Shown: positions 12,834 to 42,339, counted from the stretch's first letter. The stretch: DNA of 64,000 nucleotides from Candidatus Woesebacteria bacterium (GCA_035450165.1 DAOTMI010000001.1:45888-109887); one strand, 5' to 3'. The notes: generated from the letters alone by a model not told the origin. Made by a program: numbers and translations.

Positions 12834-14006
12834 TTATTTAATCACTTCGGTGATAGCTCCGGCACCGACGGTTAAACCGCCTTCCCGGATAGCAAAGCGC
12901 TGACCTACCTCCATGGCGACCGGTTTGATCAGGGTAATCTCCACGTTAGTATTGTCCCCCGGCATAATCATCTCTGTTCCTTCAGGAAGTTTAACATCAC
13001 CGGTAACATCGGTCGTTCCGATAAAGACTTGTGGTCGATAACCGGTAAAAACCGGGGTATGACGCCCACCTTCTTCTTTTTTTAACAAATAAATTTCAGC
13101 CTTAAACTGGGTATGGGGCGTAATTGTCCCCGACTTAGCCACTACCTGGCCTCGTTCAATATCGTCTTTTTCTACTCCCCGCAGAAGTAAACCAACATTG
13201 TCGCCAGCCTGACCTTCCTCTAACTGTTTGTGAAACATTTCGACCCCGGTTACTACTACCTTTTTAGTTGGCCTCAGGCCGACAATTTCAACCTCATCGT
13301 TAATTTTCACCTTACCTCTTCCAATCCGGCCGGTCGCCACCGTTCCTCGACCTTTAATAGAAAAGACATCTTCAATCGGCATCAAAAACGGCTTATCCAA
13401 TTCTCTCTTGGGTTCAGGAATATAAGTATCGAGAGCTTCAACTAATTTTTTAATAGACTCTACTGCCTCTGGATCACCCTCTAACGCTTTCAGGGCTGAA
13501 CCACGAATAATTGGCACTTCATCACCTGGAAAACCATATTTTTTCAATAAATCCCTGATTTCTATCTCAACAAGATCTAAAAACTCCGGGTCATCAACTA
13601 AATCAACTTTATTTAAATAAACAACCATTGCCGGAACGTTAACTTGTTTCGCTAGAAGAACGTGTTCTCTTGTTTGAGGCATTGGACCATCGGGTGCCGA
13701 GACGACCAAGATAGCTCCATCCATTTGAGCCGCACCGGTAATCATGTTTTTGACATAATCATGATGGCCGGGGCAATCAATATGGGCATAATGCCTTTTG
13801 TCCGATTCATATTCCAAATGGGAAATAGCAATCGTCACAATTTTAGAGGCATCACGTACTGTTCCTCCCTTAGCTATTTCAGCATAAGACTTTGGATTAC
13901 CTTGAATTTTGGAAATAGCCGCTGATAAGGTAGTTTTCCCATGGTCAACATGACCGATAGTACCAACATTAACGTGGGGTTTAGTTCTTTGATAAGTTGC
14001 CGCCAT
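12834..14006 (-). CDS. tuf: elongation factor Tu
   Basis: 390 aa. [26 protein letters not shown]-motifs and EF-Tu domains 2 and 3. Confidence 0.95.
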
Positions 14007-14142: not shown

Positions 14143-15153
14143 CTACCAAAATCTTCCAAAGGGATTAAGAATTTCAATCTTGCCAGCCTGGGTATCGCTT
14201 AAACCGCAATAAAGTTGAACCTTTTCAAGATAATGTGGCTCATTCTCAATCTTTTGCAAACCGCCGGGCATAATAATATCTTCTAATTCCGGCCTTTTCG
14301 CCGGTCCGGGCGGAAAATCTTTTCTAAGGGCAACAATTCTCATATTTGAGAATTGGAAATCCTTCGGATTAAATTCAAAAACCATCGCCGCGTAATGTTT
14401 AGAACCGTCTAACTCCATTGAAGCGATATGACCTAAAACGCCGATTCGCCCGTCTTTTAATAAATAAGCATTATCAACTCCACCCCATTCTAATTCTTTG
14501 AATTGATTTTCAATAATCCTTGCTTTAGAAATGACATCCTGATTCAAATCTTCCAAAGAATTAATAACTGTAAAACCGATTTTCCCTCGGCCTGCTTTTT
14601 CCCCCTGTGGTCGGGTAAAAACACCAATTTTTTTATCAGCTAATTCAACTAGGCGAATATTCTTCATCATCCTCGGTCCTTCGGTAAATTTTCTAAAGTC
14701 TTTAAAGTTACTGCCCTGAAAGAAAACTGTTTTATATTCAAGCTCGCCTTCTTTGAATCGAGAAGGGGTAACTATTACTCCGTTTAGAACATACCTATTT
14801 TTTATGGTCGTTAAAAAGGGGTCCTGCATCGACCAATAAAAAAGATCTTTAGCTAGCCACCAGCTGTTATCTTTTGGTTCGTAAATAAAGAAGCAGGAAA
14901 TACTGTTTTTTTCCGATCCGCGCGGCTCAACCCGACCTAATAAATAAAGGTTACCATCCTTCTTAATAGGAGCGCTTATATTATAAACATCTTTTTGACC
15001 AACCCCCTTTACTTCTAAAATTTCTCCCCGGACAAAATTCGGTTCGGTTTCTTCATATTTACTCAAAAGCTCCCGGTAGCTTTGGGGTTGGGATTTTGAT
15101 CCCTGCAATTCCGATTCTCTTAAATTTTTTGGACAGGCATCTGGGATCATCAT
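14143..15153 (-). CDS. hypothetical protein, possibly a GH130/DUF1861-like beta-propeller fold. It is inserted between fusA and tuf.
   Basis: 336 aa. Segments such as VYNISAPIKKDGNLYLLGRVE and GPRMMKNIRLVELADKKIGVFTRP resemble the repeated blade motifs of GH130-type glycoside phosphorylases. The fold assignment is by eye only. It is unusual cargo inside the str operon. Confidence 0.35.
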   Translation of the reverse strand: MMIPDACPKNLRESELQGSKSQPQSYRELLSKYEETEPNFVRGEILEVKGVGQKDVYNISAPIKKDGNLYLLGRVEPRGSEKNSISCFFIYEPKDNSWWLAKDLFYWSMQDPFLTTIKNRYVLNGVIVTPSRFKEGELEYKTVFFQGSNFKDFRKFTEGPRMMKNIRLVELADKKIGVFTRPQGEKAGRGKIGFTVINSLEDLNQDVISKARIIENQFKELEWGGVDNAYLLKDGRIGVLGHIASMELDGSKHYAAMVFEFNPKDFQFSNMRIVALRKDFPPGPAKRPELEDIIMPGGLQKIENEPHYLEKVQLYCGLSDTQAGKIEILNPFGRFW

Positions 15154-15159
15154 GGACTG

Positions 15160-17265
15160 TTAAGACTTCTTGACTCCGGGTTTAGTCAATTCTGCCTGAA
15201 TTTCGCAGGGAACGGGATCATAGCGCGATAATTCCATATAAAATAAACCCCGACCTTGAGTTAGAGAACGAATAGTAGTCGCATAACCACGGACAGCTTC
15301 CAGAGGAATAAAACAATCAATAGTCGTAATACCATAAAGCTCTTTAGTATTACTAATTTGGCCCCTCCTTGACGATAAATCACCGATAACTGCCCCCAAA
15401 AACTCTGATGGTGTTTCTACCTCCATTTTCATAATCGGCTCCAAAATCAGCGGTTTAGCCTGTTCGAAAGCTTCTTTGACAGCAAAAGAACCGGCCAATT
15501 TAAAGGCCATTTCGCTGGAATCAACTTCATGGTAAGTACCATCAAAAACAGTAACTTTTAAATCAGTACAGGGATAGCCGGCAATAATCCCTTTAGATAG
15601 GGTTTCCCGAACCCCTTTTTCAATCGCCGGAATGAAATTAGCCGGAATAGCACCGCCTTTGACGGCGTTAATAAACTCTACTCCCTGACCTCTTTCCTTA
15701 GGTTCAACCCGCAGCCAGCAATGACCATATTGGCCATGACCGCCGGATTGATGAATATATTTTCCCTCAGCTTCGGCCTTTTCTGAAATAGTCTCCCGAT
15801 AGGCCACCTGAGGAGCTCCGGTTTTAACATTAACTCCAAATTCCCGTCTCAACCGATCAATAATAATTTCCAAATACAGTTCACCCATACCGGAAATAAT
15901 GGTTTGGCCGGTTTCATGGTCATAAAAAACTTTAAAAGTCGGGTCTTCGATTGCCAATTTATTTAAAGCCTGACCCATTTTTTCCTGATCATCGGCTGTT
16001 TGGGGTTCAATAGCCAGAGAAATAACTGGTTCGGCAAAACGAATCGGCAGAAGAGAAATGGGCTGATTGCGATCACAGAGAGTGTCACCGGTGGCCGATT
16101 CTTTTAAACCAATACAAGCGACAATTTCTCCAGCAAAACCTTCCTCAATCCCTTCCCGTTTATCGGCGTGCATCAAAAGCAGCCGGCCAATTCGTTCGGT
16201 AGTTTTTCGGGTGGCATTATAAACTTCAGAACCAGCCTTTAAAACACCGGAATATATCCTAACATAGGATAAAGTTCCCACATGAGAATCAGCCTGAACT
16301 TTAAATAAAAGGGCTGATAACGGCTCTTCCCGTAAAGGCTTGCGGGTAATTTTCGCCTCAGTTTCCACATCATAACCTTCAACCGGGGGCAGATCTAACG
16401 GTGACGGTAAATAATCGACGATACCGTCCAAAACTGGTTGGATGCCTTTATTTCGCCAAGCCGAACCACAATAAACCGGAAAAAGTTTTCTTTCAATAGT
16501 TGCCTTTCTTAAAACTCTTTTTAAATCTTCAACTTTAATTTCCTCATCGTTTAAAAATTTCTCCATTAAAACTTCGTCCTGGCCAGCGATTGCTTCGACC
16601 ATTTTAGTTCGAACTTCTTCAATTTTATCCTTATCTTCAGGATTTAATTCCTTAGTGGTAAAATTAATCCCCTGTTCATCTTGATCCCAAACCAGCATTT
16701 TCCGGGTCATTAAATCAACCACTCCCATAAATTCATGCTCTTTACCAATTGGGTAAACTACCGGAACTGCAGTTACCCTTAATTTTTCCCTGATACTCTT
16801 AAGAACTAAATTAATATCGGAGCCGATTTTATCCATTTTATTGATAAAAACGATTCGGGGCACTCCATACCGATCAGCCTGACGCCAAACTGTTTCTGAC
16901 TGAGCTTGAACACCGGCATTGCCATCAAAAACCATTACCGCTCCATCCAAAACTCGGAGGGATCGCTCCACTTCAGCGGTGAAATCGACATGGCCGGGAG
17001 TATCAATAATATTAAAACGGTGATTTTTCCAAAAAGTCGTAATACAAGCGGATTGAATAGTAATTCCCCGTTCTTTTTCTTGAATCATAAAATCAGTGGT
17101 CGTTGTCCCTTCATCAACTATACCTATTTTATGGATTTTTCCAGTATAAAACAAAATCCGTTCGGTAGTTGTCGTCTTGCCGGCGTCAATATGGGCAATA
17201 ATACCAATATTACGGACTTTTTCTATCGCGACGTCGCGGTTTTTAGTTATTTTAATCGCTTCCAT
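15160..17265 (-). CDS. fusA: elongation factor G
   Basis: 701 aa. NIGIIAHIDAGKTTTTERILFYTG, DTPGHVDF, NKMD, and domains II-V. Confidence 0.95.
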   Translation of the reverse strand: MEAIKITKNRDVAIEKVRNIGIIAHIDAGKTTTTERILFYTGKIHKIGIVDEGTTTTDFMIQEKERGITIQSACITTFWKNHRFNIIDTPGHVDFTAEVERSLRVLDGAVMVFDGNAGVQAQSETVWRQADRYGVPRIVFINKMDKIGSDINLVLKSIREKLRVTAVPVVYPIGKEHEFMGVVDLMTRKMLVWDQDEQGINFTTKELNPEDKDKIEEVRTKMVEAIAGQDEVLMEKFLNDEEIKVEDLKRVLRKATIERKLFPVYCGSAWRNKGIQPVLDGIVDYLPSPLDLPPVEGYDVETEAKITRKPLREEPLSALLFKVQADSHVGTLSYVRIYSGVLKAGSEVYNATRKTTERIGRLLLMHADKREGIEEGFAGEIVACIGLKESATGDTLCDRNQPISLLPIRFAEPVISLAIEPQTADDQEKMGQALNKLAIEDPTFKVFYDHETGQTIISGMGELYLEIIIDRLRREFGVNVKTGAPQVAYRETISEKAEAEGKYIHQSGGHGQYGHCWLRVEPKERGQGVEFINAVKGGAIPANFIPAIEKGVRETLSKGIIAGYPCTDLKVTVFDGTYHEVDSSEMAFKLAGSFAVKEAFEQAKPLILEPIMKMEVETPSEFLGAVIGDLSSRRGQISNTKELYGITTIDCFIPLEAVRGYATTIRSLTQGRGLFYMELSRYDPVPCEIQAELTKPGVKKS

Positions 17266-17297
17266 AGTTAGTAATTAGTAATTAGTAATTAGTAATT
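17266..17297. repeat. tandem 7-bp repeat (AGTAATT)x4.5 in the divergent fusA / flavoprotein intergenic region
   Basis: agtt-agtaatt-agtaatt-agtaatt-agtaatt read directly. It lies immediately upstream of the fusA start codon at 17265. Confidence 0.8.
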
Positions 17298-17332
17298 GAA
17301 ACATAGTATCATATCATAGATTATACAGAAAC

Positions 17333-18475
17333 ATGAAAAAGAAAATTGCTATAATCGGCGGAGGAATCGGCGGACTAACTGTTGGATATTTTTTAAAGAA
17401 AAAAAATTATGAGGTGACGGTATATGAAAAGGAGAAAGACTTAGGTGGTTTAATGGGGAGTTTTGAAATTAACGGGAAAAAAATTGAAAAAACATATCAT
17501 CATATTTTTGCCAGTGATACGGAAATTATTAATCTAATTAAAGAATTGGGGTTAGATAAACAACTGATTTGGCGGAATGAAAATATGGCCGTGATTTACC
17601 AAAACAAGGTCTACGCTTTTAATTCACCAATCGATTTATTAAGGTTTTCGCCGTTGGATTTAATTGACAAAGTTCGGCTAGGTTTGGTGTCAATTTATTT
17701 ACAAAAAGAAAATAATTACCAAAAATTTGAAAAAATTAAAGCTTACCAATGGATTAAAAAATATTTTGGCAAAAATGTTTATCGAGTTTTATGGCAGCCA
17801 CTTCTAAAGGGAAAGTTCGGCAAGGATTATAAAGAAATAAATATGACCTGGTTTTGGGCCAGAATACATTACCGAGGCCATTCAAAATTGGGATATATGA
17901 AAGGTGGTTTCGGACAAATCATTAACAAATTGTCCAAAAATCTAAATATAATTTATAAAAATGTAAAGGCAGAAAATTTAAAAGGTTATGATCTGATAAT
18001 CGATACATCGCCGATAAAATCGGTAAAATATTTAGGAGCAGTAGATGTAATATTTACCAGTAAACAAAACTTATCAAAGTATTATTGGCATAATATTAAT
18101 GACGAAAAAGCACCATTTGTTGCTTTTATTCAACAGACAAATATGATTGATGATTATGGTAGTCACGTTTACTATATGGGTGGTTATTACCCACAAGATC
18201 ACAAATATTTTAAAGTAAAAGATGAAATAATTTACCAAGAATTCTTTGAATATCTGAAGAAAATATTTAAAGAATTTGAGGCAAAAGAAATTGAAAAAAG
18301 GTGGATATTTAAATTTCCGTACGCTCAACACATGCCCCGCTTCGCGGGAAGTTCCAATAACCAAATTCCAAGAAGCAAATATATTATTCACATGAATTTT
18401 GCGCAAATTTACCCGCAGGATCGGGGAATTAATTACGCAGTCAAACAGTCAAGAGAGTTGGCATCACTACTGTAA
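17333..18475 (+). CDS. FAD/NAD(P)-binding oxidoreductase (amine-oxidase / UDP-galactopyranose-mutase-like)
   Basis: 380 aa. N-terminal Rossmann dinucleotide motif IAIIGGGIGGL...VYEKEKDLGG. HHIF...and MKGGFGQIINKL segments parallel Glf/protoporphyrinogen-oxidase-family landmarks. AT-rich codon usage. Confidence 0.6.
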   Translation: MKKKIAIIGGGIGGLTVGYFLKKKNYEVTVYEKEKDLGGLMGSFEINGKKIEKTYHHIFASDTEIINLIKELGLDKQLIWRNENMAVIYQNKVYAFNSPIDLLRFSPLDLIDKVRLGLVSIYLQKENNYQKFEKIKAYQWIKKYFGKNVYRVLWQPLLKGKFGKDYKEINMTWFWARIHYRGHSKLGYMKGGFGQIINKLSKNLNIIYKNVKAENLKGYDLIIDTSPIKSVKYLGAVDVIFTSKQNLSKYYWHNINDEKAPFVAFIQQTNMIDDYGSHVYYMGGYYPQDHKYFKVKDEIIYQEFFEYLKKIFKEFEAKEIEKRWIFKFPYAQHMPRFAGSSNNQIPRSKYIIHMNFAQIYPQDRGINYAVKQSRELASLL

Positions 18476-18537
18476 AAACACAGCAAACTACGTTTATCCA
18501 GCGAAATTCCGAAATGTATTAAAAATCAAATAGTAAA

Positions 18538-18574
18538 GGCGAGGCCAGCCTGCCGGCAGGTAGGTTTCCTCGCC
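18538..18574. terminator. GC-rich nested hairpin between convergent genes (flavoprotein + / rmlD -). Probable bidirectional terminator.
   Basis: ggcgagg-ccagcctgccggcagg-taggttt-cctcgcc. The outer 7-bp stem encloses a CCTGCC/GGCAGG palindrome. On the minus strand a T-rich tract follows. The same core recurs at 42340-42364. Confidence 0.4.
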
Positions 18575-18621
18575 TTGAGTTGAACAACACTGTCTTAAAT
18601 CGGACAAAAGCGGTCTAGGAC

Positions 18622-19500
18622 TTACATTTGTTCCTTCATTGCCCTCAACCCTTCCTCCAAAGTCTTCATCGCAATTTTCAAAGCCCTGACTTTATCATTG
18701 CTGATAGCTAAATTTTTCTGCCAGGGACGGGAGTTAGCTGGCAGAGTTTCTCGATATGCCTTAAGACTAGTTTGGGGAATAAGCTGGGGATCAAATCCCC
18801 AAATTTTAGCAATTAATTGGCCCATATCGTAGGGTGATTGACTGGAAGAACCGACTAAATGGAAAATACCAGTAGGTTTATTTTCAAAAAAATATTTAAG
18901 GCCCAAGGCGATATCATCAACAAAAGTCGGAGTGATAATTTGATCGGTAAACATCGGCGGCAGACTGTTGGTTTTGAGGCCGTCGATGGCTTTTCGGACC
19001 AAATCTTTTTTGTCGCCAAAATTGGCGCGATAAGGAAAGGAAATACGGACAATACTACTAGGAATACCGGAATTTAAAACTTCCTGCTCGGCAAGATATT
19101 TGGTTTGGCCGTACCATTCGATGGGATTGGGGGCATCGTCTTCGGTATAGGCACCGTCTTTTTTACCATCAAAAACAAAATCGGTGGAAATATTGATCAA
19201 ATATTTATTGTACTTTTTGCATAAATTGACAATATTGCGGGTGCCGATAACATTTAGCTGATAACAAAGGCCATTTTCGTCACCGTTTTGAGCCCAGGCC
19301 TGATTAGTATCAGTAAAAGCGGCCAAATGGAGAAAACAGTCAAAGTCGGAATTTTTAGCAATAGCTTCTTCCAACTGCCGGGGTTCCAAAATAGAAATTC
19401 CCGAAGCCAAGGAAAAATCAACAAAAGTAAAGCTGTTTTTAAATAACTCGACTACCCGCGAACCGACCAAGCCGGACAAACCACTACCGAGAATTTTCAT
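18622..19500 (-). CDS. rmlD: dTDP-4-dehydrorhamnose reductase
   Basis: 292 aa. N-terminal GxxGxxG (ILGSGLSGLVG), the RmlD signature ISTDFVFDG, and catalytic YGQTK. Confidence 0.85.
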   Translation of the reverse strand: MKILGSGLSGLVGSRVVELFKNSFTFVDFSLASGISILEPRQLEEAIAKNSDFDCFLHLAAFTDTNQAWAQNGDENGLCYQLNVIGTRNIVNLCKKYNKYLINISTDFVFDGKKDGAYTEDDAPNPIEWYGQTKYLAEQEVLNSGIPSSIVRISFPYRANFGDKKDLVRKAIDGLKTNSLPPMFTDQIITPTFVDDIALGLKYFFENKPTGIFHLVGSSSQSPYDMGQLIAKIWGFDPQLIPQTSLKAYRETLPANSRPWQKNLAISNDKVRALKIAMKTLEEGLRAMKEQM

Positions 19501-19599
19501 AAAGAATTATAACAAAAATTAGCTATTCTCTAGCTATTTGTTGGCTAAAGATGTTTTGAGTTTATAATTAATTGACAGGAAGATTATTTCATACTATCA

Positions 19600-19812
19600 T
19601 TGGTTAATATTTTAACCGATTCTTTAAAAAATATTTGGGAAAATAGGGTTAATAATAAGGTTTTAGTAAAAATAATAAAGAGAGATTTTGATGGTAAATG
19701 CGGAAAGTGTGTCGATCGATATGTTTGTGGTGGCTGTAGAGCTAGAGCTATGGTATTAAATAATAATATTCTAGGAGCTGACCCATATTGTTTATTATGT
19801 TTATTATGTTGA
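19600..19812 (+). pseudogene. Cys-rich ORF fragment resembling the C-terminal SPASM/twitch region of a radical SAM enzyme. It has no ATG start (TTG only) and an in-frame stop 24 nt upstream.
   Basis: ...DGKCGKCVDRYVCGGCRARAMVL...PYCLLCLLC carries a Cx2Cx5Cx2C cluster, like the auxiliary Fe-S cluster motif of SPASM domains. The stop-to-stop frame begins at 19576 with no Met. It is likely a gene remnant or a small Cys-rich peptide. Confidence 0.3.
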
Positions 19813-20222
19813 TTATTAAAAAAGCATTAAAAAAAGATACCGATTTTATTTTACAGATAACTCGGGAAAACATGTCTAGTTTGTTGGTTTGGAATGATGA
19901 AAAATTCCTTAATAATTTGAAAATAAAAAATATTTATATTGTCTTTAAAGATAGTAAAAAAATAGGTCTGGTGGATTGCGAGAAAATCAAAGGGAATTTG
20001 TATATCCATAACCTTCAAGTGAATAAAGAATTTTGGGGTCAGGGTATTGGTAAAACAATTATGGAGTATGTTGATAATTTAGCCAAAATAATGAAATGTA
20101 AAAAAATTGTGTTTAGGGTGTCGCAAAATAATAAAAGGGCAATTACTTTTTATGCAAATTTGGGGTTTCACTATTTAAAAAATGACGATAATTCAAATGG
20201 ATTTTGGGAAAAATTAGTTTAG
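19788..20222 (+). CDS. GNAT family N-acetyltransferase
   Basis: 144 aa. Acetyl-CoA binding motif A (FWGQGIGKTIMEYV) and RAITFYANLGF. Three in-frame ATGs at 19788, 19797 and 19806, so the true start is uncertain. Confidence 0.75.
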   Translation: MFIMFIMLIIKKALKKDTDFILQITRENMSSLLVWNDEKFLNNLKIKNIYIVFKDSKKIGLVDCEKIKGNLYIHNLQVNKEFWGQGIGKTIMEYVDNLAKIMKCKKIVFRVSQNNKRAITFYANLGFHYLKNDDNSNGFWEKLV

Positions 20223-20512
20223 TGGTAAAGCATAAGACATTGCAGATATGTTGGAATGTGCGTACCTCAACTAATGCTTTGTATAGTCCAAATTATATTG
20301 ATCCCAAAAACCCAGCAAAATCTATGTATTCATATTATTTGAAACTAAAGGATAATATGATTTGGGGAACTGATGAGCCGTGGACTAAAAATATTAATTA
20401 TAAAAAAACTTATTCAGATGAGGTGAAGGTTATCGCTGATCTTTTTAAACTTTCGCCCGAAGCTATGATTCGAATTACTATCAAAAATTCTGAAAGATTT
20501 CTTTTTGGATAA
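20204..20512 (+). CDS. hypothetical protein
   Basis: 102-aa ORF overlapping the GNAT 3' end by 19 nt. It has no recognisable motifs. It may be real or noise. Confidence 0.3.
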   Translation: MGKISLVVKHKTLQICWNVRTSTNALYSPNYIDPKNPAKSMYSYYLKLKDNMIWGTDEPWTKNINYKKTYSDEVKVIADLFKLSPEAMIRITIKNSERFLFG

Positions 20513-20520
20513 TAATGAAC

Positions 20521-21066
20521 TTAAAATATACCTCTGACGGTGTCGAGGTCGCCGAGAGTTTGGTCTTTGTCGGAGACGATGTAGTCCATTTTGGGCCAAG
20601 TAATGGCAAGTTTTGGATCGTTGTAGATAATGCCGGATTCGGAAGTCTGATTGTAAAAATTGTCACACTTGTATTGAAAATCAGCAGTGTCGGAAAGGGC
20701 GACAAAACCATGGGCAAAACCCTGGGGAATAAAAAGCATTTGGTGATTTTCAGCGGATAATTCAAACATTTCAAATTGACCGAAAGTAGGGGAATTCTGA
20801 CGAATATCAACAGCGACATCAAGGACATTGCCGGCGGTGCAGCGAACTAATTTGGCTTGGGCAAAAGGCGGTTTTTGAAAGTGTAAACCACGAAGAACAC
20901 CTTTAACCGAATGGGAGTAATTGTCTTGGACAAATTTAGTGTCAATCCCGTTGGCGGCAAAAACTTTTTCATTGTAGGTTTCAAGAAAAAACCCACGGTC
21001 GTCACTGAAAACATCGGGAATCACCTTTATCAAATCGGGAATTTTATTAGAACGAATAAATTGCAT
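20521..21066 (-). CDS. rmlC: dTDP-4-dehydrorhamnose 3,5-epimerase
   Basis: The cupin fold reads DDRGFFLETYNE...VLRGLHFQ...KLVRCTAGNVLDVAVDIR (RmlC His-Asp catalytic dyad context). The start is set at the internal Met (MQFIRSN...). The track ORF is extended 22 aa into rmlB. Confidence 0.85.
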   Translation of the reverse strand: MQFIRSNKIPDLIKVIPDVFSDDRGFFLETYNEKVFAANGIDTKFVQDNYSHSVKGVLRGLHFQKPPFAQAKLVRCTAGNVLDVAVDIRQNSPTFGQFEMFELSAENHQMLFIPQGFAHGFVALSDTADFQYKCDNFYNQTSESGIIYNDPKLAITWPKMDYIVSDKDQTLGDLDTVRGIF

Positions 21067-21070
21067 AAAA

Positions 21071-22072
21071 TTATCTCCCGATTTTTTGATAAAATTTTTC
21101 CGCTTCCTCTTTAGCAGTCCGCCACCAAGCAAGATTATTTTGATACCAAGCTACCGTTAATTTAAGCGCTTCTTTAAAATCATATTGAGGTTCCCAATTT
21201 AACTCTCTTTTAATTTTTCCCCAATCTACGGCATATCTTCGATCATGGCCGGGTCGATCAGCCACAAATTCGATCTGATTCTCATCTTTTCCCATAATTT
21301 CCAAAATAGTTTTAGTCAAGGTTAAATTATTGATATTTTCGGTCATGCCGCCGACGCAATAAGTTTCACCAATCCTACCATTCATTAAAATTAATTCGAT
21401 CGCCCGGCAATGATCTTCGACATAAAGCCAGTCACGGACATACAAACCATCGCCGTAAACCGGCACTTTTTGGCCGGTTAATAAATTGGTAATTATTCGG
21501 GGAATAAATTTCTCCGGTGATTGATAAGGACCATAATTGTTGGAACAATTGGAAATAGTAATTGGTAATCCAAAAGAATGGTAAAAGGCTCGAACTAAAT
21601 GATCGGAAGCGGCCTTGCTGGCAGAATAAGGCGATCGAGGATCATAAACAGTCAATTCATTAAATCTTTGGGATGAATCTAAAGGCAAGGCTCCGAAAAC
21701 TTCATCGGTAGAAATATGATGAAACCGAATTTTTTTCTCAGCGGCGACATTCAACAGTGTAAATGTTCCTAAAACATTGGTCTGTAAAAATAATTCCGGA
21801 TCGGCCAGCGACCGGTCAACATGGGATTCAGCGGCAAAATGGACAATAGCCTCAACTCCTTCCATCGCTTGCCGGCAGACAGCCGAATCACCAATATCCC
21901 CCTTAATAAACTGATAATGAGAATTACCTTCCCAATCCTTTAAATTAGCCGGATTGGCGGCATAGGTAATTTTATCCAAATTAACGATAAAATCGTCGGG
22001 GTGGCGCCGCAACCAATAATGAATGAAATTCGAGCCGATAAAGCCCAGTCCACCGGTAACCAAAAGCTTCAT
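21071..22072 (-). CDS. rmlB: dTDP-glucose 4,6-dehydratase
   Basis: 333 aa. MKLLVTGGLGFIGSNF (NAD-binding), an SDR YxxxK (YSASKAASD), and extended-SDR family length. Confidence 0.88.
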   Translation of the reverse strand: MKLLVTGGLGFIGSNFIHYWLRRHPDDFIVNLDKITYAANPANLKDWEGNSHYQFIKGDIGDSAVCRQAMEGVEAIVHFAAESHVDRSLADPELFLQTNVLGTFTLLNVAAEKKIRFHHISTDEVFGALPLDSSQRFNELTVYDPRSPYSASKAASDHLVRAFYHSFGLPITISNCSNNYGPYQSPEKFIPRIITNLLTGQKVPVYGDGLYVRDWLYVEDHCRAIELILMNGRIGETYCVGGMTENINNLTLTKTILEIMGKDENQIEFVADRPGHDRRYAVDWGKIKRELNWEPQYDFKEALKLTVAWYQNNLAWWRTAKEEAEKFYQKIGR

Positions 22073-22199
22073 ATGGAATTAGTATAACACCTGCTGTTCT
22101 CTAAGTTTAGGATATATTATTATTATACCATAATATTATAGGCTTGTCAAGAGCTAAATATTCACAGGATTAAATGTGTCTATTATGTTATAATGCGGC

Positions 22200-22760
22200 A
22201 TGGTTGAAAGAAAAAATTTTTTACTCACCAAATTTAAATTTTTAACGGAACGACAAAAAGGTAGGGAAAAGCCGTTTTCGCCCCAATTCAACGAAGAAAA
22301 CCTGAAGTCAGATTTAGAAGAAGCAACAAAAAAGCTTCAAGCTAAAGTCTTAGTTCAAGGGGAACCAGTGGAAATTATAACTATTGTCAGTGGCGAAAAA
22401 TATCAACGGGATGATAGAGGTTTATCCCTAAAATGCCTTATCCACAAAAAGAATAAGGAAGATAAGACTATTCTTTTAAATCTGGTAACCTATAACGAAT
22501 ATAATAACGGCCCAAGCGAGCGACAGTTTTTAGAAATGATTTCTTTAGTTGAAGGAACTAAAAAAGGCTATCGTTTTGCCATTGACTTAAATGATTATCA
22601 CCAAATATATAATGAAACTATTGGAATTACCGTAGTTGAAAATTATGGCAAAATAGAACAAATACGGGAAACAAACATCGGTCGGGGTAAACCCATTCCT
22701 AACGAACACCCCTATTCTACTTTTATCAATACGGCTCGTTTAGTGCTTAAAAGTCGTTAG
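22200..22760 (+). CDS. hypothetical protein
   Basis: 186 aa, hydrophilic, with no recognisable motif. A -10-like TATAAT lies 7 nt upstream of the ATG. Confidence 0.45.
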   Translation: MVERKNFLLTKFKFLTERQKGREKPFSPQFNEENLKSDLEEATKKLQAKVLVQGEPVEIITIVSGEKYQRDDRGLSLKCLIHKKNKEDKTILLNLVTYNEYNNGPSERQFLEMISLVEGTKKGYRFAIDLNDYHQIYNETIGITVVENYGKIEQIRETNIGRGKPIPNEHPYSTFINTARLVLKSR

Positions 22761-22770
22761 TTAATTTTTC

Positions 22771-24195
22771 CTAAGGGATAGGTGTTGGAGAAATTGTCAC
22801 CCGCGGGGTAGGAGTTGCTTCTGGGGCAGCTTTAGCCGTCGGAGTAGCTGTCGATTGAGGAGTTACTATCGCTCCTGTTTTTAAATCAACCCCTATAAGA
22901 AAAACAGCATCGTAAGATGAGGTTGCTGGTAACTCTTCAAATTCAGCCTGAAAATCGGGTAATTTAGCTTTAAAATAAGAGGAAGCAGTGGCGATTTTTT
23001 CCTTAAGTCTAATAATATTGCCCTTGACATTTTCCTTACTGTTGCCGATAGCTACCGAAGTAAAACCCAATTTAGTTAACATCTCTTTTACCGCCGCCGC
23101 TTGACCGTTGATATCGGTGGCATTTAAAACCTGGATTTTAATATCTTTAGCTATTTCTGTTACTGATGGTGTCGGTGTCGTTGTTAGCTCTACTTCTTCT
23201 CTCTGTTCTTTAACTGCTGTTGGTCCTACTGGTGAACTTACCTCTGGAGTTCGATTACGGTTGAGAATAAACCAAATAACAATCGAGGCAATTGCCGCTG
23301 TTACAATAAAAACGGCGATAATAGGAAGATAATTTTTTCGATTTTCCATAGCTGGTCTAATTATAACACGGGGTAGAGAACCAAATAAACCCAGAACTGG
23401 TAAGGGAATATTGCCGGCTTTCCTCCATTCCCGAGCAATTTGAACTTCATCATAAGGAGTTTTGTCTAAAACCGAAGTAGCATTAAGTTCCAGTTCAAAC
23501 TGGCTTGGCACGAAAATTTTAGAAATAGGATGGGAAAAATATAAGCCAGCATAATTAATAATTTTTTGGATATCTAAACTTGTCCCTTTTAATCCGGCGG
23601 TTAAATAAACTTTCTCCTTGTCTGCCAAAAAGAGGGTATATTCATTTTTAGCTATAGGGTAAATTAAAAAATATTCGCCAGCAAAAAATCCAGAGATTAC
23701 TCGAGAAACAGCTGTAGAAACCGTTTCAAATGATAAGGGATTGAAGGCTAATTGAGTCAAATTAGCTTTAAGAACTTCCATTTTGATCTTGTTACCAATA
23801 GAAGCTCGAATAAGAGTCTTATCTGTTCCTGGAAATAATTCATAATTAAGATATTGAGGATCAATTTTAAAAGGAATAAAACTTTCGGCTAGACTAATGA
23901 CTTCTTTCTTCTCGATGGTTTTAATAACCGAATCGTAAATAAACGATTTGGTAATAATCACATCATCATCAACTAAAACCACTCCTTCTTTTAAACCCTG
24001 CTGGTTAACAAAAGCAGTTAAGGGAGCTAAATCTTCAACCGAGTGGGGCTCAAATAGATTTAAATCCCAGTTAAAAACATTATTTTCCTTCCGGTCGAAA
24101 TAAAGATTAACGCTTTTTCTCTTGACCCAAAGAACCACTTTAGGCTTAGCAAATAATGACATCTCTCTTATAGTATGATGAAAAAATCCTACCAA
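22771..24195 (-). CDS. membrane-anchored protein with a C-terminal LytR_C (LytR/CpsA/Psr C-terminal) domain
   Basis: 474 aa. A cytoplasmic N-domain of about 280 aa, a single TM (IIAVFIVTAAIASIVIWFIL), a Pro/Thr/Glu-rich linker, then IKIQVLNATDINGQAAAVKEMLTKLGFTSVAIGNSKE... typical of LytR_C. Its 3' end overlaps the rpsG start by 7 nt, so it is co-transcribed with the str operon. Confidence 0.55.
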   Translation of the reverse strand: MVGFFHHTIREMSLFAKPKVVLWVKRKSVNLYFDRKENNVFNWDLNLFEPHSVEDLAPLTAFVNQQGLKEGVVLVDDDVIITKSFIYDSVIKTIEKKEVISLAESFIPFKIDPQYLNYELFPGTDKTLIRASIGNKIKMEVLKANLTQLAFNPLSFETVSTAVSRVISGFFAGEYFLIYPIAKNEYTLFLADKEKVYLTAGLKGTSLDIQKIINYAGLYFSHPISKIFVPSQFELELNATSVLDKTPYDEVQIAREWRKAGNIPLPVLGLFGSLPRVIIRPAMENRKNYLPIIAVFIVTAAIASIVIWFILNRNRTPEVSSPVGPTAVKEQREEVELTTTPTPSVTEIAKDIKIQVLNATDINGQAAAVKEMLTKLGFTSVAIGNSKENVKGNIIRLKEKIATASSYFKAKLPDFQAEFEELPATSSYDAVFLIGVDLKTGAIVTPQSTATPTAKAAPEATPTPRVTISPTPIP

Positions 24196-24668
24196 CGCAA
24201 GTGGGCAAAAGCTTTGTTGGCTTCTGCCATTCTTTCGACCTCTACCCGTTTAGCCACTGCTGTTCCTTCACCCTTTAGCGCCAACTTAATCTCATCAGCC
24301 AATTTTTCTGAAAAGGTATGGAATTGCTTATTAGCTTTAGCTCGAGCGGACTGAATTAACCACCGAATCGCCAAAGAATTTTGGCGATTGCTTTTTACCG
24401 GTGTCGGTACTTGATAAACTGCTCCACCAATACGACGCGGTCGAACTTCCACTTTTGGTCGAATATTATCCAAGGCCTGTTCTAATAACATTAGCGCTTC
24501 ATCACCCATTTCTTTTTCCACCATAGCCAAGGCTTGATAGACCTGTTTCATGGCAACTTTTTTCTTACCGTCAAACATAGCTCCATGAATTATTTTACTG
24601 ACTGTCACCGAATTATAAATCGCCTCCGGCTCTATTTTCCTTACTTTAGCTCGACCTTTACGTGACAT
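24189..24668 (-). CDS. rpsG: 30S ribosomal protein S7
   Basis: 159 aa. MSRKGRAKVRKIEPEAIYNS...QALDNIRPKVEVRPRRIGGAVYQVP. Confidence 0.93.
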   Translation of the reverse strand: MSRKGRAKVRKIEPEAIYNSVTVSKIIHGAMFDGKKKVAMKQVYQALAMVEKEMGDEALMLLEQALDNIRPKVEVRPRRIGGAVYQVPTPVKSNRQNSLAIRWLIQSARAKANKQFHTFSEKLADEIKLALKGEGTAVAKRVEVERMAEANKAFAHLRW

Positions 24669-24736
24669 AAGCTTAATTTAAAATTTAAAATTTAAAATAA
24701 TTAAAATTCTCGAGATTTTTAATTTTTAATTCGTAA

Positions 24737-25156
24737 TTAATTACCGGCTCCCGGGCGTTTAGTCCCGTAGCGGGAACGGCTTTGTTTCCGACCAACCACT
24801 CCAGCGGCATCAAAACGACCTCGGATAATATGGTAACGAATACCGGGCAAATCACGAACCCGGCCACCGCGAACGGTAACAATACCGTGTTCAGCCAAAT
24901 TATGACCAACGCCGGGAATATAAGCTGTTACTGAAGCCCGATTACTTAACTTTACTTTACAAACTTTACGTAAGGCTGAATTAGGTTTTTTAGGCGTCAT
25001 AGTTTTAACTACCGTAATTACCCCTTTTTTAATCGGATTAAAGCTGGAAACCCGCTTGTTTTCTCGGCTATTAAAAGTACCCCGAAGAGCCGATGCCTTA
25101 ACCCGCTTAGGTTTTTGTTTTCGTCCTTTTCTAATTAATTGATTAAATGTAGGCAC
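24737..25156 (-). CDS. rpsL: 30S ribosomal protein S12
   Basis: 139 aa. [13 protein letters not shown]...[18 protein letters not shown]...GHNLAEH. Confidence 0.93.
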
Positions 25157-25169
25157 TCTAAACTAATTT

Positions 25170-28100
25170 CTAATTTTTAATTTCTACTGGAATTAATCTG
25201 CCGATAATAACATTTTCCTTCAAACCAATCAAGTGATCCACTTCGGCTAATAATGAAGCTTCGGTTAAAACAGAGGTAGTTTGTTGGAATGAAGCCGCCG
25301 ACAACCAAGAACCAGTGGTAAGGGCCGCTTGAATCAAACCCAAAAGAACTTTTCGACCTTTAGCTGGTTCACCGCCCTTTTCTTTCAATTTATCATTGGC
25401 TTCGGTATAAATCGCCCGGGTAACAATCTGACCGTAAATAAAATTAGTATCACCCGGATCTTCAATTTTTATTTTGTCACTCATTTCTTTAATAATCACC
25501 TCGATATGTTTATCGTGAATAACAATCCCCTGGGATTCGTAAACAAACTGAATATTATTAATCAGATACCGCTGGGCTGCTTCCAAACCTTTAATATTTA
25601 AGACCTCCCGCACATCCAAGGAACCCGAACATAACTGAGTACCGGCAATAACTAAATCGCCGTCGGCCACCATAAGATTAGTATTAATGGGAACTGCATA
25701 GGTAATAATCTTCTTATGGCCATTATCATCTTTGCCTGTCAATTTTATCTCGTAATTATCAAGATTTTCTTTAATTGAAATCCGGCCATCAATCTCCGCA
25801 ATTGGCGAAGGCAATTTCGGAGTTCTTATCTCGAATAATTCTTGAACCCTAGGTAAATCTTGAGTAACATCGACTCCGATTACTCCCCCGCTATGCTTAG
25901 TTCTTAAAGTTAACTGGGTTCCCGGTTCACCAATAGATTGGGCTCCGATAACTCCTACTGGAACTCCGATTTTTACCATTTTACGGGTTGACATATCCCA
26001 ACCATAACATTTTTGACAAAGACCATTTAAAGATCGACAAGTTAAAGGTGAATAAACATTAACTGCTGAAACATTGCTACTTTCAATCAAGGCTCCTAAT
26101 CGAGAATCGATTATGTCACCAACTTTAGCTATAACCTTGTTCGTCTTTGGATCAACTACTTCTGACGCTAAAACTCGGCCCAAAATTCGCCGGGCAAAAG
26201 ACCGCTCTCGACCTTTATCATTTTTTTCAATGGTTAAAAACTTGGTGGTTCCGCAATCTTTTTCCCTAATAATTGCAGCATGGGCGGCGTCAACCAACCG
26301 GCGAGTTAAATAACCGGCGTCAGCCGTTTTTAAGGCCGTATCGGCCAAACCTTTTCTTGCTCCCCGTGCCCCAGTTACATACTCAAAAACCGATAAACCT
26401 TCACGAAAATTAGATTTAGTTGGCAGTTGAACAATTTCACCCATTGGATCAACCACTAATCCCCGTATACCTGAAAGTTGCTTAATTTGATCCTTCGAAG
26501 CCCGCTTAATTCCTGCGGCTGAGATAATCCGAATAGGTGAATCGGTAGCTAAAGTCGCCCATGTTTTTTCGGCAATTTCCTCAGTTACACTCATCCATAA
26601 AGTCTGACACAAACGCTTTTTCTCCCCATTCGTAATTAAGCCCATCTTATAATTTCCCTCAATTTCGGCAATTTTTTTATTAGTTTCAGCAATAATTTGA
26701 TCCTTTTCCTTTAAATACCCACAATCTTCCATCGCCAACGACAGCCCAGAAAGGGTAAAACCCTTGAAACCTATATCTTTTAAATCGTCAATCAGATGAA
26801 CTGTCCGCAGGCGGCCACATTTCTCCATTGTTTTAAAAATCAAATCATTCATTGATTTGCTTCCAGCTACCGGTTCGTTAATATATTCAAAATTTTCCGG
26901 TAAAATAGAATTAAACCAAATCCGACCGTAAGTAGTTCTTAAAAGTTGACCATTAATTCGTACCATAATTAATTCCCTCAAACCGATTTTACCTGCTTCG
27001 TAGGCTAACTGAGCTTCTGTTTTATCACTTAAAACCGGTAAATCTTTAAACTCTTCGTCCTTTTCTTTTTCTAAATCTTCCGATCTAACCGAAGTAAAAT
27101 AGTAACAACCCACCGCCATTTCTTGCGAGGGAACAGAAATAGGCGAACCATCAGCTGGCTTTAAGAGATTACGAGAAGGTACCATCAACTCTTTAGCTTC
27201 CTTTTGGGATGATTCTGAGAGGGGTAAATAAACTCCCATTTGATCGCCGTCAAAATCGGCATTAAAACCTCGACAAACACAGGGGTGAAGACGAATAGCT
27301 AAACCATCTACCAAAATCGGTCTAAAGGCTTGAATGGAAAGTTTATGGAGTGTTGGCGCCCGATTTAACAAAACATAACTTTTCTTTGTAACTTTCTCCA
27401 AAATATCATAAACCTCATTGACTCGATGATCAACTAAATTTTTAGCACTTTTAATATTGGGGGCAATTCCGCTGGTAATTAATTCTCTAAGAACAAAAGG
27501 CCGATACATTTCCAAGGCAATCTCCTTAGGTAAACCAACTTGATTGAGTTTTAAATCCGGACCGACAACAATGACCGAACGGCCGGAATAATCAACCCGT
27601 TTACCTAAAAGATTTCTTCTGAAACGTCCTTTCTTTCCCCGCAACATATCAGACAATGACCGAGGTAAACGTTTACTGCCCTTGCGTTTATTCCTAGCAC
27701 TCTTTTGAGCATCAATTAAAATATCGACCGATTCTTGAAGCATTCTTTTCTCATTTTTAAGAATTATTTCCGGTGCTCCTAATTTCAATAATTTTTTGAG
27801 ACGATTATTCCGATTAATTAAACGGCGATACAAATCGTTTAAATCAGAAGTCGCAAAACGACCGCCAGTTAGCTGCACCATTGGCCGCAGATCAGGCGGT
27901 ATCACTGGAATATTTCGCAATACCATCCACCCTGGCTCAATACCGTTCTCAATCATCCCGTTTAAAATGCGAATTTTATACATAATTTTCTTTTTCTTCA
28001 AACGGGAAGAGGTTTTGCCCAATTCCTTCTTTAGATTTACAACTATTGCCGATAATTCTAATGTTTCCAAAACTTCCAAAATAGCTTCAGCTCCCATTTT

Positions 28101-42301: not shown

Positions 42302-42339
42302 ACAATTTTAATTCAAAATTTAAAATTTTTAATATCTAT

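What the first reader, a model, noticed from the sequence alone, without database searches (positions are those of the whole stretch)
17266..24195. The str operon (rpsL-rpsG ... fusA-tuf) is split by a 7-kb mixed-strand insertion carrying dTDP-rhamnose genes and accessory genes
The order rpsL-rpsG-fusA-tuf is among the most conserved gene orders in bacteria. Here rpsG is followed on the same strand, with a 7-nt overlap, by a LytR_C membrane protein. Between it and fusA lie a 186-aa hypothetical (+ strand), rmlB and rmlC, a 102-aa hypothetical, a GNAT, a SPASM-like Cys-rich fragment, rmlD, and a Glf/amine-oxidase-like flavoprotein. rmlA is missing, and strands and GC content are patchy. This looks like a cell-surface glycan (rhamnose) modification cassette that has invaded a core operon. 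fusA must then be expressed from its own promoter in the 17266-17332 region that holds a 7-bp tandem repeat.
Basis: partly seen in the sequence, partly recalled or inferred. Interest (0 to 1): 0.6.

Follow-up and report, generated by a model that had tools for sequence, protein, structure and literature searches.

The report
Ancient envelope-gene island splitting str operon
In this Candidatus Shapirobacteria genome the normally contiguous rpsL-rpsG-fusA-tuf operon really is interrupted by about 7 kb of cell-envelope genes, but the interruption is an old arrangement shared by the whole lineage, not a recent invasion or an assembly error.

Summary
On the minus strand, 6,923 bp separate rpsG (24189-24668) from fusA (15160-17265). 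They carry a LytR_C membrane protein, rmlB, rmlC, rmlD, an opposite-strand flavoprotein and small opposite-strand ORFs.

It is not a chimera. Independent assemblies from other samples are collinear at 99.7-100% identity.

It is not a recent invasion. Of 64 related loci with upstream DNA, 63 have rpsG directly before the LytR_C gene. All 24 loci that span rpsG to fusA start with that gene and end with the divergent flavoprotein, and 17 carry rmlBCD. More distant Microgenomates keep rpsG next to fusA or carry unrelated inserts there.

Lineage-specific additions in the window:
- hyp186
- a low-GC block (SPASM remnant, GNAT, orphan ORF)
- a DUF1861 gene between fusA and tuf

- The 7-nt overlap rests on an unsupported TTG start. 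Homologs support the ATG at 24162, which leaves a 26-nt spacer.
- The flavoprotein belongs to the PRK07233 family, with a phytoene-desaturase/protoporphyrinogen-oxidase fold. It is not Glf.
- The LytR_C protein has a cytoplasmic domain with a PilM/GspL/FtsA-like fold.

A conserved extended -10-like motif upstream of fusA supports an independent fusA promoter. Interest is moderate.

The parts
24737..25156 (-). rpsL (S12), first gene of the str operon
   Evidence: Translation; Pfam Ribosom_S12_S23 on the identical gene.
24189..24668 (-). rpsG (S7), the last canonical gene before the island
   Evidence: Ribosomal_S7. It lies directly upstream of the LytR_C gene in 63 of 64 related loci.
22771..24162 (-). 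Bitopic envelope protein of 463 aa. It has a cytoplasmic actin-like domain (about residues 1-260), a TM helix (279-302), a Pro/Thr-rich linker, an extracytoplasmic LytR_C domain (about 340-425) and a Pro/Thr-rich tail. It is the conserved first gene of the island.
22200..22760 (+). hyp186, an orphan ORF convergent with the LytR_C gene (10-bp gap). It is a secondary insertion shared only with the nearest relatives.
   Evidence: No Pfam, NCBIfam or PHROGs hit. An exhaustive HMMER search found one real homolog at 50% identity. Homologs occupy the same slot and orientation in L094, L145 and L162.
22186..22194 (+). Extended -10 (TGTTATAAT) ending 5 nt before the hyp186 ATG
22122..22150 (-). Consensus promoter-like site TTGACA-17-TATAAT with an upstream TG (12/12), upstream of rmlB
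   Evidence: TGNTATAAT occurs 9 times in the window against 3.9 expected; no shuffle out of 100 reached 9.
21071..22072 (-). rmlB, dTDP-glucose 4,6-dehydratase
   Evidence: TIGR01181, 465.5 bits against a cutoff of 365. Present in 20 of 24 related loci that span the island.
20521..21066 (-). rmlC, dTDP-4-dehydrorhamnose 3,5-epimerase (181 aa from the ATG at 21066)
   Evidence: TIGR01221, 231 bits against a cutoff of 156. Gene call. A GGGAG Shine-Dalgarno sequence lies upstream.
19600..20512 (+). Low-GC secondary block: SPASM-domain C-terminal remnant (19600-19812), intact GNAT acetyltransferase (19797-20222) and an orphan 84-aa ORF (20258-20512)
   Evidence: hyp70 matches only the last ~60 residues of radical SAM/SPASM models. 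GNAT: Pfam 9.6e-14. The orphan ORF has only self-matches. GC is 0.26-0.31. The block is absent from all related species. L093 has different ORFs in the rmlC-rmlD slot.
19506..19514 (-). Extended -10 (TGTTATAAT) ending about 6 nt before the rmlD ATG
18622..19500 (-). rmlD-like dTDP-4-dehydrorhamnose reductase
   Evidence: Pfam RmlD_sub_bind, 4.1e-43, full length. TIGR01214 scores 142.8 bits, below its cutoff of 224.
18536..18576 (.). Strong GC-rich hairpin between the convergent rmlD and flavoprotein genes; a candidate bidirectional terminator
   Evidence: RNAfold gives -25.5 kcal/mol (z -3.5) on the minus strand and -30.8 kcal/mol (z -4.5) on the plus strand for 76-nt segments containing the hairpin. 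The minus-strand tail is UUUACUAUUUGAUUUUU.
17333..18475 (+). FAD-dependent oxidoreductase of the PRK07233 family, divergent from fusA. It is the conserved last gene of the island.
   Evidence: NF005560, 359 bits against a cutoff of 252. Pfam Amino_oxidase and NAD_binding_8, no GLF domain. AlphaFold2 model, pLDDT 87. Foldseek best matches are phytoene desaturase 5mog (TM 0.81) and PPOX 2ive (0.79); UDP-galactopyranose mutases score lower at 0.63-0.73. Present and opposite to fusA in 24 of 24 spanning loci.
17307..17318 (-). Conserved TATGATATGATA motif containing the extended -10-like TGATATGAT (17308-17316); the candidate fusA promoter
   Evidence: It is the only match in the window (0.06 expected). 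An equivalent RTGnTAT(C/G/T)AT motif lies 53-134 nt upstream of the fusA ATG in 27 of 27 distinct related leaders.
17268..17297 (.). Tandem repeat TTAGTAA x4.3, which reads (AUUACUA)n in the putative fusA 5' leader
   Evidence: TRF score 60, 100% matches. Copy number is identical in nine independent assemblies. Relatives carry different short tandem repeats at the same position.
15160..17265 (-). fusA (EF-G)
   Evidence: It is 74-79% identical to Ca. Shapirobacteria EF-G.
14143..15153 (-). DUF1861 protein inserted between fusA and tuf. Its start lies 6 nt after the fusA stop. This insertion is species-specific.
   Evidence: Pfam DUF1861, 1.2e-99. No homolog occupies this slot in any related locus.
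12834..14006 (-). tuf (EF-Tu), followed by rpsJ and the S10 cluster

Best explanation
This is a lineage-wide rearrangement of the str operon, fixed in an ancestor of a Candidatus Shapirobacteria clade. It is not a recent cassette.

Backbone. The conserved order is rpsL-rpsG, then a bitopic envelope protein (cytoplasmic PilM/GspL-fold domain, TM helix, extracytoplasmic LytR_C domain), usually rmlB-rmlC-rmlD, then a PDS/PPOX-fold flavoprotein on the opposite strand, then fusA. Variable slots lie between the backbone genes. Different lineages, including this one, have dropped small accessory or decaying genes into them: hyp186, the SPASM-remnant/GNAT/orphan block, and DUF1861 between fusA and tuf.

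Inferred mechanism. The LytR_C gene has taken fusA's place as the gene after rpsG, with a 26-nt spacer and no terminator, so it is probably co-transcribed with rpsL-rpsG. rmlBC, rmlD, hyp186 and the GNAT block each have their own TGnTATAAT-type promoter. A strong hairpin after rmlD blocks read-through. fusA, and with it DUF1861, tuf and the S10 cluster, is transcribed from its own extended -10 promoter in the 67-bp divergent region shared with the flavoprotein gene. The 7-bp repeat is part of an AT-rich leader without a Shine-Dalgarno sequence.

Functional inference. The island contributes to cell-wall glycopolymer (rhamnose) supply and envelope organisation. rmlA must be encoded elsewhere in the genome.
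For: Not an artefact:
- 13 contigs carry the identical flavoprotein.
- Collinear assemblies from NCBI, JGI, ENA and Logan samples are 99.7-100% identical across 14143-25156.

Ancestral arrangement:
- GTDB species representatives with 74-79% EF-G identity show rpsG-LytR_C-(rmlBCD)-flavoprotein(opposite strand)-fusA.
- Three distant LytR_C homologs on long contigs show the same.
- In 83 LytR_C-anchored loci (80 from the metagenome scan, 3 from those contig look-ups), rpsG is directly upstream in 63 of 64 testable cases.
- All 24 loci spanning rpsG to fusA have the LytR_C gene first and the flavoprotein last. Seventeen carry rmlBCD, four carry no rml genes, and three carry rmlB with or without rmlA. 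The span is 2.8-10.6 kb.

Outgroups:
- Other Microgenomates have rpsG adjacent to fusA (L021, L023-L026, L030) or carry unrelated inserts (L022, L031).

No mobility signatures:
-.

Transcription units:
- TGNTATAAT occurs 9 times against 3.9 expected. Three copies sit directly upstream of rmlB, rmlD and hyp186.
- A hairpin lies at 18536-18576.
- The conserved fusA-linked motif stays with fusA even when other genes separate it from the flavoprotein.

Protein identities:
-.

Literature:
- LytR_C solo-domain proteins act in cell-wall homeostasis and bind LCP ligases through their LytR_C domains (PMC11832169).
Against: - No expression data exist. All promoters, the terminator and the co-transcription of the LytR_C gene with rpsG are inferred from sequence.
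- The overall promoter-like and terminator-like counts in the region are not above shuffled expectation (42 against 39; 18 against 15).
- In most relatives a terminator-like hairpin lies between the -10-like motif and fusA. This complicates the simple reading that the motif is the fusA promoter.
- Four lineages lack all rml genes, so functional coupling between the backbone genes is not obligatory.
- Unrelated inserts at the same junction in other Patescibacteria suggest the site may simply tolerate insertions.
- rmlA could not be located, and RmlD scores below the NCBIfam equivalog cutoff.
Confidence: 0.8

Rival explanations
1. Recent horizontal invasion of the str operon by a mobile cell-surface glycan cassette.
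For: - Strands are mixed and GC is patchy.
- rmlA is missing.
- Pseudogene remnants (SPASM fragment) and orphan ORFs are present.
- Some pieces really are lineage-specific: the GNAT block, hyp186 and DUF1861.
Against: - The backbone (LytR_C gene, rmlBCD, flavoprotein) is conserved in position and orientation across relatives whose LytR_C proteins are only 41-64% identical.
- The rml genes have typical GC.
- There is no integrase, transposase, tRNA gene or flanking repeat.
Confidence: 0.05
2. Assembly or binning artefact: a chimeric join at 17.3 kb or 24.2 kb.
For: The source is a metagenome-assembled genome, and composition changes at the junctions.
Against: - Both junctions are reproduced in independent assemblies from different samples and pipelines. 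These show a few SNPs and full collinearity: L002 (JGI), L004 (ENA), L003 (Logan) and L005 (JGI).
- The same junction types occur in dozens of other species.
Confidence: 0.01
3. Neutral erosion of operon order. In Patescibacteria the rpsG-fusA and fusA-tuf junctions are simply permissive sites. The conserved content reflects shared ancestry, not functional coupling to translation genes.
For: - Unrelated genes occupy the same junctions in other Microgenomates and Patescibacteria. L022 has HhH-GPD, flavodoxin, DUF2130, an aldo/keto reductase and CvpA-CAP. L031 has an unknown ORF. L028 has DUF3105 and a 23S-IVP-like ORF between fusA and tuf.
- The slots inside the island are highly variable, with gaps from 0 to 3.6 kb.
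- Each unit seems to have its own promoter.
Against: - The rpsG to LytR_C spacing is tight (median about 50 bp, 63 of 64 loci), and the divergent flavoprotein-fusA pairing is universal across deep divergence. Both point to selection on these two adjacencies.
- This rival overlaps with the best explanation on history and differs only on function.
Confidence: 0.3

Closest known systems
Canonical bacterial str operon (rpsL-rpsG-fusA-tuf), as in E. coli and B. subtilis
   Same: The same four genes appear in the same order and orientation. They are preceded by rpoB-rpoC and followed by the S10 cluster.
   Different: About 6.9 kb (9 ORFs) lie between rpsG and fusA, and 1 kb (DUF1861) lies between fusA and tuf. 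fusA appears to have its own promoter. Insertions between concatenated translation operons are documented in Gammaproteobacteria (PMC6735719). Here the break is inside the operon.
dTDP-L-rhamnose biosynthesis cluster rmlABCD
   Same: rmlB and rmlC pass the NCBIfam equivalog cutoffs. An RmlD-like reductase is present. The order B-C-D on one strand matches that in relatives.
   Different: rmlA is absent from the island and from the 64-kb window. It lies within the island in only 6 of 83 related loci. In this genome rmlC and rmlD are separated by an opposite-strand low-GC block. No glycosyltransferase is adjacent.
Mycobacterial LytR_C solo-domain envelope proteins Cei (Rv2700) and VirR
   Different: The window protein scores 38 bits against the Cei cutoff of 150. 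It has an extra ~260-residue cytoplasmic actin-like domain that Cei and VirR lack, plus Pro/Thr-rich linkers.
GspL / PilM-PilN assembly-platform proteins of type II secretion and type IV pili
   Different: There is no sequence-level similarity. The outer domain is LytR_C, not the GspL/PilN ferredoxin-like domain. No pilus or secretion genes lie at the locus.
PRK07233 / NF005560 family of uncharacterised FAD oxidoreductases (phytoene desaturase / protoporphyrinogen oxidase superfamily)
   Same: The flavoprotein scores 359 bits against a cutoff of 252. The fold matches PDS at TM 0.81 and PPOX at 0.79.
   Different: No substrate is known. It is below the cutoff for PPOX (TIGR00562: 72 bits against 98) and has no GLF domain, so it is neither HemY nor Glf. 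Its fixed position divergent from fusA is specific to this clade.

Membership tests
Canonical str operon | rpsL, rpsG, fusA and tuf are contiguous | tested here: not met
   There is a 6,923-bp gap between rpsG and fusA, and a DUF1861 gene lies between fusA and tuf.
Canonical str operon | Same order and strand, flanked by rpoBC and the S10 operon | tested here: met
Canonical str operon | A single transcript from a promoter upstream of rpsL | not testable with these tools
   Sequence suggests separate units: extended -10 sites, the hairpin at 18536-18576 and a conserved fusA-linked motif. No RNA data are available.
dTDP-L-rhamnose pathway (RmlABCD) | RmlB, dTDP-glucose 4,6-dehydratase | tested here: met
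   TIGR01181, 465.5 bits, above the cutoff of 365.1.
dTDP-L-rhamnose pathway (RmlABCD) | RmlC, 3,5-epimerase | tested here: met
   TIGR01221, 231.1 bits, above the cutoff of 155.75.
dTDP-L-rhamnose pathway (RmlABCD) | RmlD, 4-reductase | tested here: inconclusive
   Pfam RmlD_sub_bind, 4.1e-43 over the full length. TIGR01214 scores 142.8 bits, below its cutoff of 224.
dTDP-L-rhamnose pathway (RmlABCD) | RmlA, glucose-1-phosphate thymidylyltransferase | tested here: not met
The same query found rmlA in L066 and L026, which serves as a positive control. The rest of the genome could not be searched.
Mobile genomic island / cassette | Integrase or transposase, flanking direct repeats, or a tRNA target | tested here: not met
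   There are no such genes among the ORFs, no significant flanking repeats and no tRNA genes in the window.
Mobile genomic island / cassette | Patchy presence among close relatives | tested here: not met
   The backbone is present in all 24 loci that span the island. Only hyp186, the GNAT block and DUF1861 are patchy.
Cei/VirR LytR_C solo-domain proteins | LytR_C domain outside the membrane after an N-terminal TM helix, with no other domain | tested here: not met
   The LytR_C domain is present. It is preceded by a 260-residue actin-like cytoplasmic domain. NF035953 scores 38 bits against a cutoff of 150.
PilM / GspL | Actin-like cytoplasmic fold | tested here: met
PilM / GspL | Sequence-family membership and neighbouring pilus or secretion genes | tested here: not met
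   There is no Pfam or NCBIfam hit to PilM or GspL. A profile search against PDB sequences finds only LytR_C proteins. No pil or gsp genes lie at the locus.
UDP-galactopyranose mutase (Glf) | GLF domain and Glf as the best structural match | tested here: not met
   There is no PF03275 hit. Foldseek ranks PDS and PPOX first; Glf structures come at rank 28 or lower with TM 0.63-0.73.
NF005560 (PRK07233) FAD oxidoreductase | Score above the curated cutoff | tested here: met
   359.1 bits against a cutoff of 252.

The most novel reading that the evidence does not exclude
The split is a functional rewiring, not a passive insertion. Three parts would have to hold. First, a previously undescribed bitopic protein (PilM/GspL-fold cytoplasmic domain, TM helix, LytR_C ectodomain) is expressed from the rpsL-rpsG transcript in every member of the clade, which ties envelope or cell-wall glycopolymer assembly to ribosome synthesis. 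Second, it works together with the rhamnose genes and a PDS/PPOX-fold flavoenzyme. Third, fusA-tuf-S10 has come under a new conserved leader (extended -10 motif, terminator-like hairpin, tandem repeats) that acts as an attenuator for the elongation-factor and ribosomal-protein genes.
Probability: 0.15. Interest if true: 0.6.

Novelty: new variant of a known kind. Interest (0 to 1): 0.35.

Why it matters
The rpsL-rpsG-fusA-tuf order is used as a near-universal synteny anchor. This work shows that it is stably broken in a whole candidate-phyla-radiation lineage, and that the same junctions carry other inserts elsewhere in Patescibacteria.

For annotators, this is a lineage marker, not a sign of mis-assembly.

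For biology, it picks out three uncharacterised but strongly conserved elements in an uncultivated group:
- a LytR_C protein with a PilM/GspL-fold domain that always follows rpsG
- a PRK07233 flavoprotein that is always divergent from fusA
- a conserved fusA leader

None of the component genes is a new kind of enzyme, and the overall phenomenon, operon disruption by insertion, is known.

Tried and rejected
- **Assembly chimera:** rejected.
- **Mobile element:** rejected. No repeats, tRNA genes, integrase or phage-family hits except a generic GNAT.
- **Phase-variable 7-bp repeat:** rejected. Copy number is identical in nine assemblies, and similar AT-rich heptamer repeats precede rpsG and rpsL and lie at the start of the ORF at 10302-11045.
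- **Known RNA element in the region:** none in Rfam.
- **Flavoprotein as Glf:** rejected.
- **The 102-aa ORF as a TatD remnant:** only a sub-threshold Pfam hit (E = 0.0098) and no homologs, so it is left as an orphan.
- **hyp186:** an exhaustive search gave one homolog and no function.
- **rmlA elsewhere in the window:** not found. ORFs at 32-44 kb are housekeeping genes. The rest of the 184-kb contig and genome could not be read.
- **Sequence-level link of the LytR_C protein's N-domain to PilM or GspL:** none. The link rests on fold alone.
- **Literature:** searches found no description of this arrangement.

Full report
**1. Observation**

ORF listing and translation with Pfam and NCBIfam scans confirm the gene order on the minus strand:
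- rpoB, rpoC
- rpsL (24737-25156)
- rpsG (24189-24668)
- a LytR_C-domain membrane protein (22771-24162)
- rmlB (21071-22072; TIGR01181, 465 bits)
- rmlC (20521-21066; TIGR01221, 231 bits)
- an RmlD-like reductase (18622-19500; Pfam 4e-43, but below the TIGR01214 cutoff)
- fusA (15160-17265)
- a DUF1861 protein (14143-15153)
- tuf (12834-14006), then rpsJ and onwards

On the plus strand lie:
- hyp186 (22200-22760)
- a block at 19600-20512, made of a SPASM-domain C-terminal remnant, an intact GNAT and an orphan 84-aa ORF
- a flavoprotein (17333-18475)

The rpsG to fusA distance is 6,923 bp. The TTAGTAA x4.3 repeat is at 17268-17297. No rmlA is detectable in the window. GC is low only in the GNAT block (0.26-0.31) and the flavoprotein (0.32). 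The rml genes (about 0.41) match the background of 0.376 +/- 0.051.

Three details need correction:
- The 7-nt overlap with rpsG depends on a TTG start. Gene callers and 44 aligned homologs begin at the ATG at 24162, which gives a 26-nt spacer.
- The flavoprotein has no GLF domain.
- The operon is interrupted a second time, by DUF1861 between fusA and tuf.

**2. Not an artefact**

The window is identical to contig CAZBAE010000001.1 of MAG GCA_964490225.1. Thirteen contigs carry the identical flavoprotein. Independent assemblies from JGI, ENA and Logan samples are collinear across 14143-25156 at 99.7-99.98% identity with a handful of SNPs. Both junctions are therefore reproduced independently.

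**3. Comparative context**

*Species representatives.* A fusA-anchored scan of GTDB species representatives, annotated by tblastn, places the organism in Candidatus Shapirobacteria (EF-G 74-79% identity to the nearest species). Wherever enough DNA is available, these relatives show rpsL-rpsG-LytR_C-(rmlB-rmlC-rmlD)-flavoprotein(opposite strand)-fusA. This holds in L010, L011, L013, L015, L017 and L018.

*Outgroups.* More distant Microgenomates (EF-G about 60%) have rpsG directly next to fusA (L021, L023-L026, L030). Others carry unrelated genes at the junction. L022 has HhH-GPD, flavodoxin, DUF2130, an aldo/keto reductase and CvpA-CAP. L031 has an unknown ORF.

*LytR_C family.* The family has at least 298 members. 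Those that carry a source name are mostly Ca. Shapirobacteria, with a few labelled Woesebacteria or Microgenomates. Three distant members on long contigs have the same context.

*Metagenome scan.* A profile-anchored metagenome scan returned 80 more loci. Across the 83 loci:
- rpsG lies directly upstream of the LytR_C gene in 63 of 64 testable cases, with a median spacer of about 50 bp.
- All 24 loci that span rpsG to fusA begin with the LytR_C gene and end with the divergent flavoprotein.
- Of these 24, 17 carry rmlBCD (one also with rmlA), three carry rmlB with or without rmlA, and four carry no rml genes.
- The span ranges from 2.8 to 10.6 kb, with variable slots after the LytR_C gene (0-3.6 kb), after rmlD and before fusA.
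- rmlA is inside the island in 6 of 83 loci.

*Secondary inserts.* hyp186 homologs occur in the same slot and orientation only in the nearest relatives (L094, L145, L162). The GNAT block and DUF1861 occur in no other species. The closest other species (L093) has two different unknown ORFs between rmlC and rmlD.

*Mobility.* There are no integrase, tRNA or flanking-repeat signatures.

The idea of invasion survives only for the small secondary inserts.

**4. The parts**

No sequence-level link to PilM or GspL exists. The topology resembles GspL or a PilM-PilN fusion, but the ectodomain is LytR_C. LytR_C solo-domain proteins of M. tuberculosis maintain cell-wall homeostasis and bind LCP glycopolymer ligases through the LytR_C domain (PMC11832169). 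This fits with the neighbouring rhamnose genes, but the link is an inference.

*Flavoprotein.* It passes the NF005560/PRK07233 cutoff (359 bits against 252). Its model (pLDDT 87) is closest to phytoene desaturase and protoporphyrinogen oxidase (TM 0.79-0.81). UDP-galactopyranose mutases score lower. Its substrate is unknown. Because it persists where the rml genes are absent, it is not tied to rhamnose.

*Small ORFs.* hyp186 and the 84/102-aa ORF are orphans. hyp70 is a decayed SPASM C-terminus.

**5. Expression model (inferred from sequence only)**

TGNTATAAT occurs nine times in the window against 3.9 expected, and no shuffle out of 100 reached nine. Three copies sit immediately upstream of rmlB (with a perfect TTGACA -35), rmlD and hyp186. 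For rmlD and hyp186 the -10 ends 5-6 nt before the ATG, which suggests leaderless mRNAs.

A strong hairpin at 18536-18576 separates the convergent rmlD and flavoprotein genes. It would stop rmlD transcripts from running antisense through the flavoprotein gene into fusA.

In the 67-bp flavoprotein-fusA spacer, the motif TATGATATGATA (17307-17318, minus strand) contains TGATATGAT. It is unique in the window. An equivalent RTGnTAT(C/G/T)AT motif is present upstream of fusA in all 27 distinct related leaders. The motif stays with fusA when other genes separate fusA from the flavoprotein, and canonical Microgenomates have no room for it.

The 7-bp repeat would lie in the resulting leader of about 36 nt, which has no Shine-Dalgarno sequence. 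Relatives carry different short tandem repeats at the same position. Similar AT-rich heptamer repeats precede rpsG and rpsL. Copy number is invariant among nine assemblies. The repeat is therefore an ordinary leader feature and not a switch.

The LytR_C gene follows rpsG closely with no predicted terminator, so it is probably co-transcribed with rpsL-rpsG.

Caveat: overall counts of promoter-like and terminator-like sites in the region are not above shuffled expectation. Only the specific conserved sites carry weight.

**6. Comparison with known systems, and novelty**

The component enzymes are ordinary. The arrangement is a lineage-specific variant of the str operon. I found no description of it in the literature. 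Multigene insertions between concatenated translation operons are known (PMC6735719).

That lowers the surprise.

The elements worth following up are the protein with a PilM/GspL-fold domain, a TM helix and a LytR_C domain; the conserved divergent flavoprotein-fusA pairing; and the fusA leader module seen in relatives.

**7. Verdict**

This is an ancient island fixed across the clade, not a recent invasion. Novelty: a new variant of a known kind. Interest: 0.35.

Noticed in passing
L011, L012, L013, L014, L018, L090-L092, L095-L172 (region 50-135 nt upstream of fusA); absent from window 17266-17332: In most Shapirobacteria relatives the fusA leader has a conserved layout. An extended -10-like motif comes first, then 8-14 nt, then a GC-rich hairpin with a T-run that resembles an intrinsic terminator. 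AT-rich short tandem repeats follow, then an ATG with no Shine-Dalgarno sequence. The hairpin sequence differs between lineages (RNAfold -9 to -14 kcal/mol, z -2.7 to -4.3). It could be an attenuator, a 5' stabiliser or an insulator. The window and its nearest kin (L010, L093, L123) keep the motif but lack the hairpin.
   Followed up: partly
window 14143-15153 (-): A DUF1861 gene starts 6 nt after the fusA stop codon and sits between fusA and tuf. None of the ~110 related loci has a homolog in that slot. This is a species-specific insertion inside the operon. Other relatives hold different genes in the fusA-tuf gap: L011 and L012 (172-aa unknown), L014 (318 aa), L028 (DUF3105 plus a 23S-IVP-like ORF) and L154 (a 3.5-kb gap).
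   Followed up: partly
window 24675-24708, 25163-25186, 11027-11058, 42310-42328: AT-rich 7-bp tandem repeats (3-4.6 copies) lie around the start codons of rpsG and rpsL and of the ORFs at 10302-11045 and 41702-42301. They look like a general feature of translation-initiation regions in this genome.
   Followed up: no
window 19506-19514 (-), 22186-22194 (+): Perfect TGTTATAAT elements end only 5-6 nt before the ATG of rmlD and of hyp186. This suggests leaderless mRNAs. The first genes of putative transcription units lack a Shine-Dalgarno sequence, while internal genes (rpoC, rmlC, rplC) have one.
   Followed up: partly
L090 11412-12140; also L108, L120, L135, L136, L157: An RmlA-like NTP_transferase sits inside the rpsG-fusA island in a minority of relatives, either directly after the LytR_C gene or after rmlB. 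L136 and L157 carry only rmlB and rmlA, which hints at a different 6-deoxysugar product.
   Followed up: partly
L014 1-9140: In this Shapirobacteria species the flavoprotein-fusA pair is kept. No rpsG or LytR_C gene lies within 10 kb upstream. A family-2 glycosyltransferase and large unknown ORFs lie there instead, which suggests a further rearrangement.
   Followed up: no
window 32831-33820 (+), 41702-42301 (-), 35316-36035 (-): Neighbouring genes upstream of rpoB include a short (329-aa) UPF0004/radical-SAM protein (MiaB-like), a small HTH_25 protein with a Glucodextran_B-like domain, and a sortase. All look like housekeeping or envelope genes with no link to the island.
   Followed up: no
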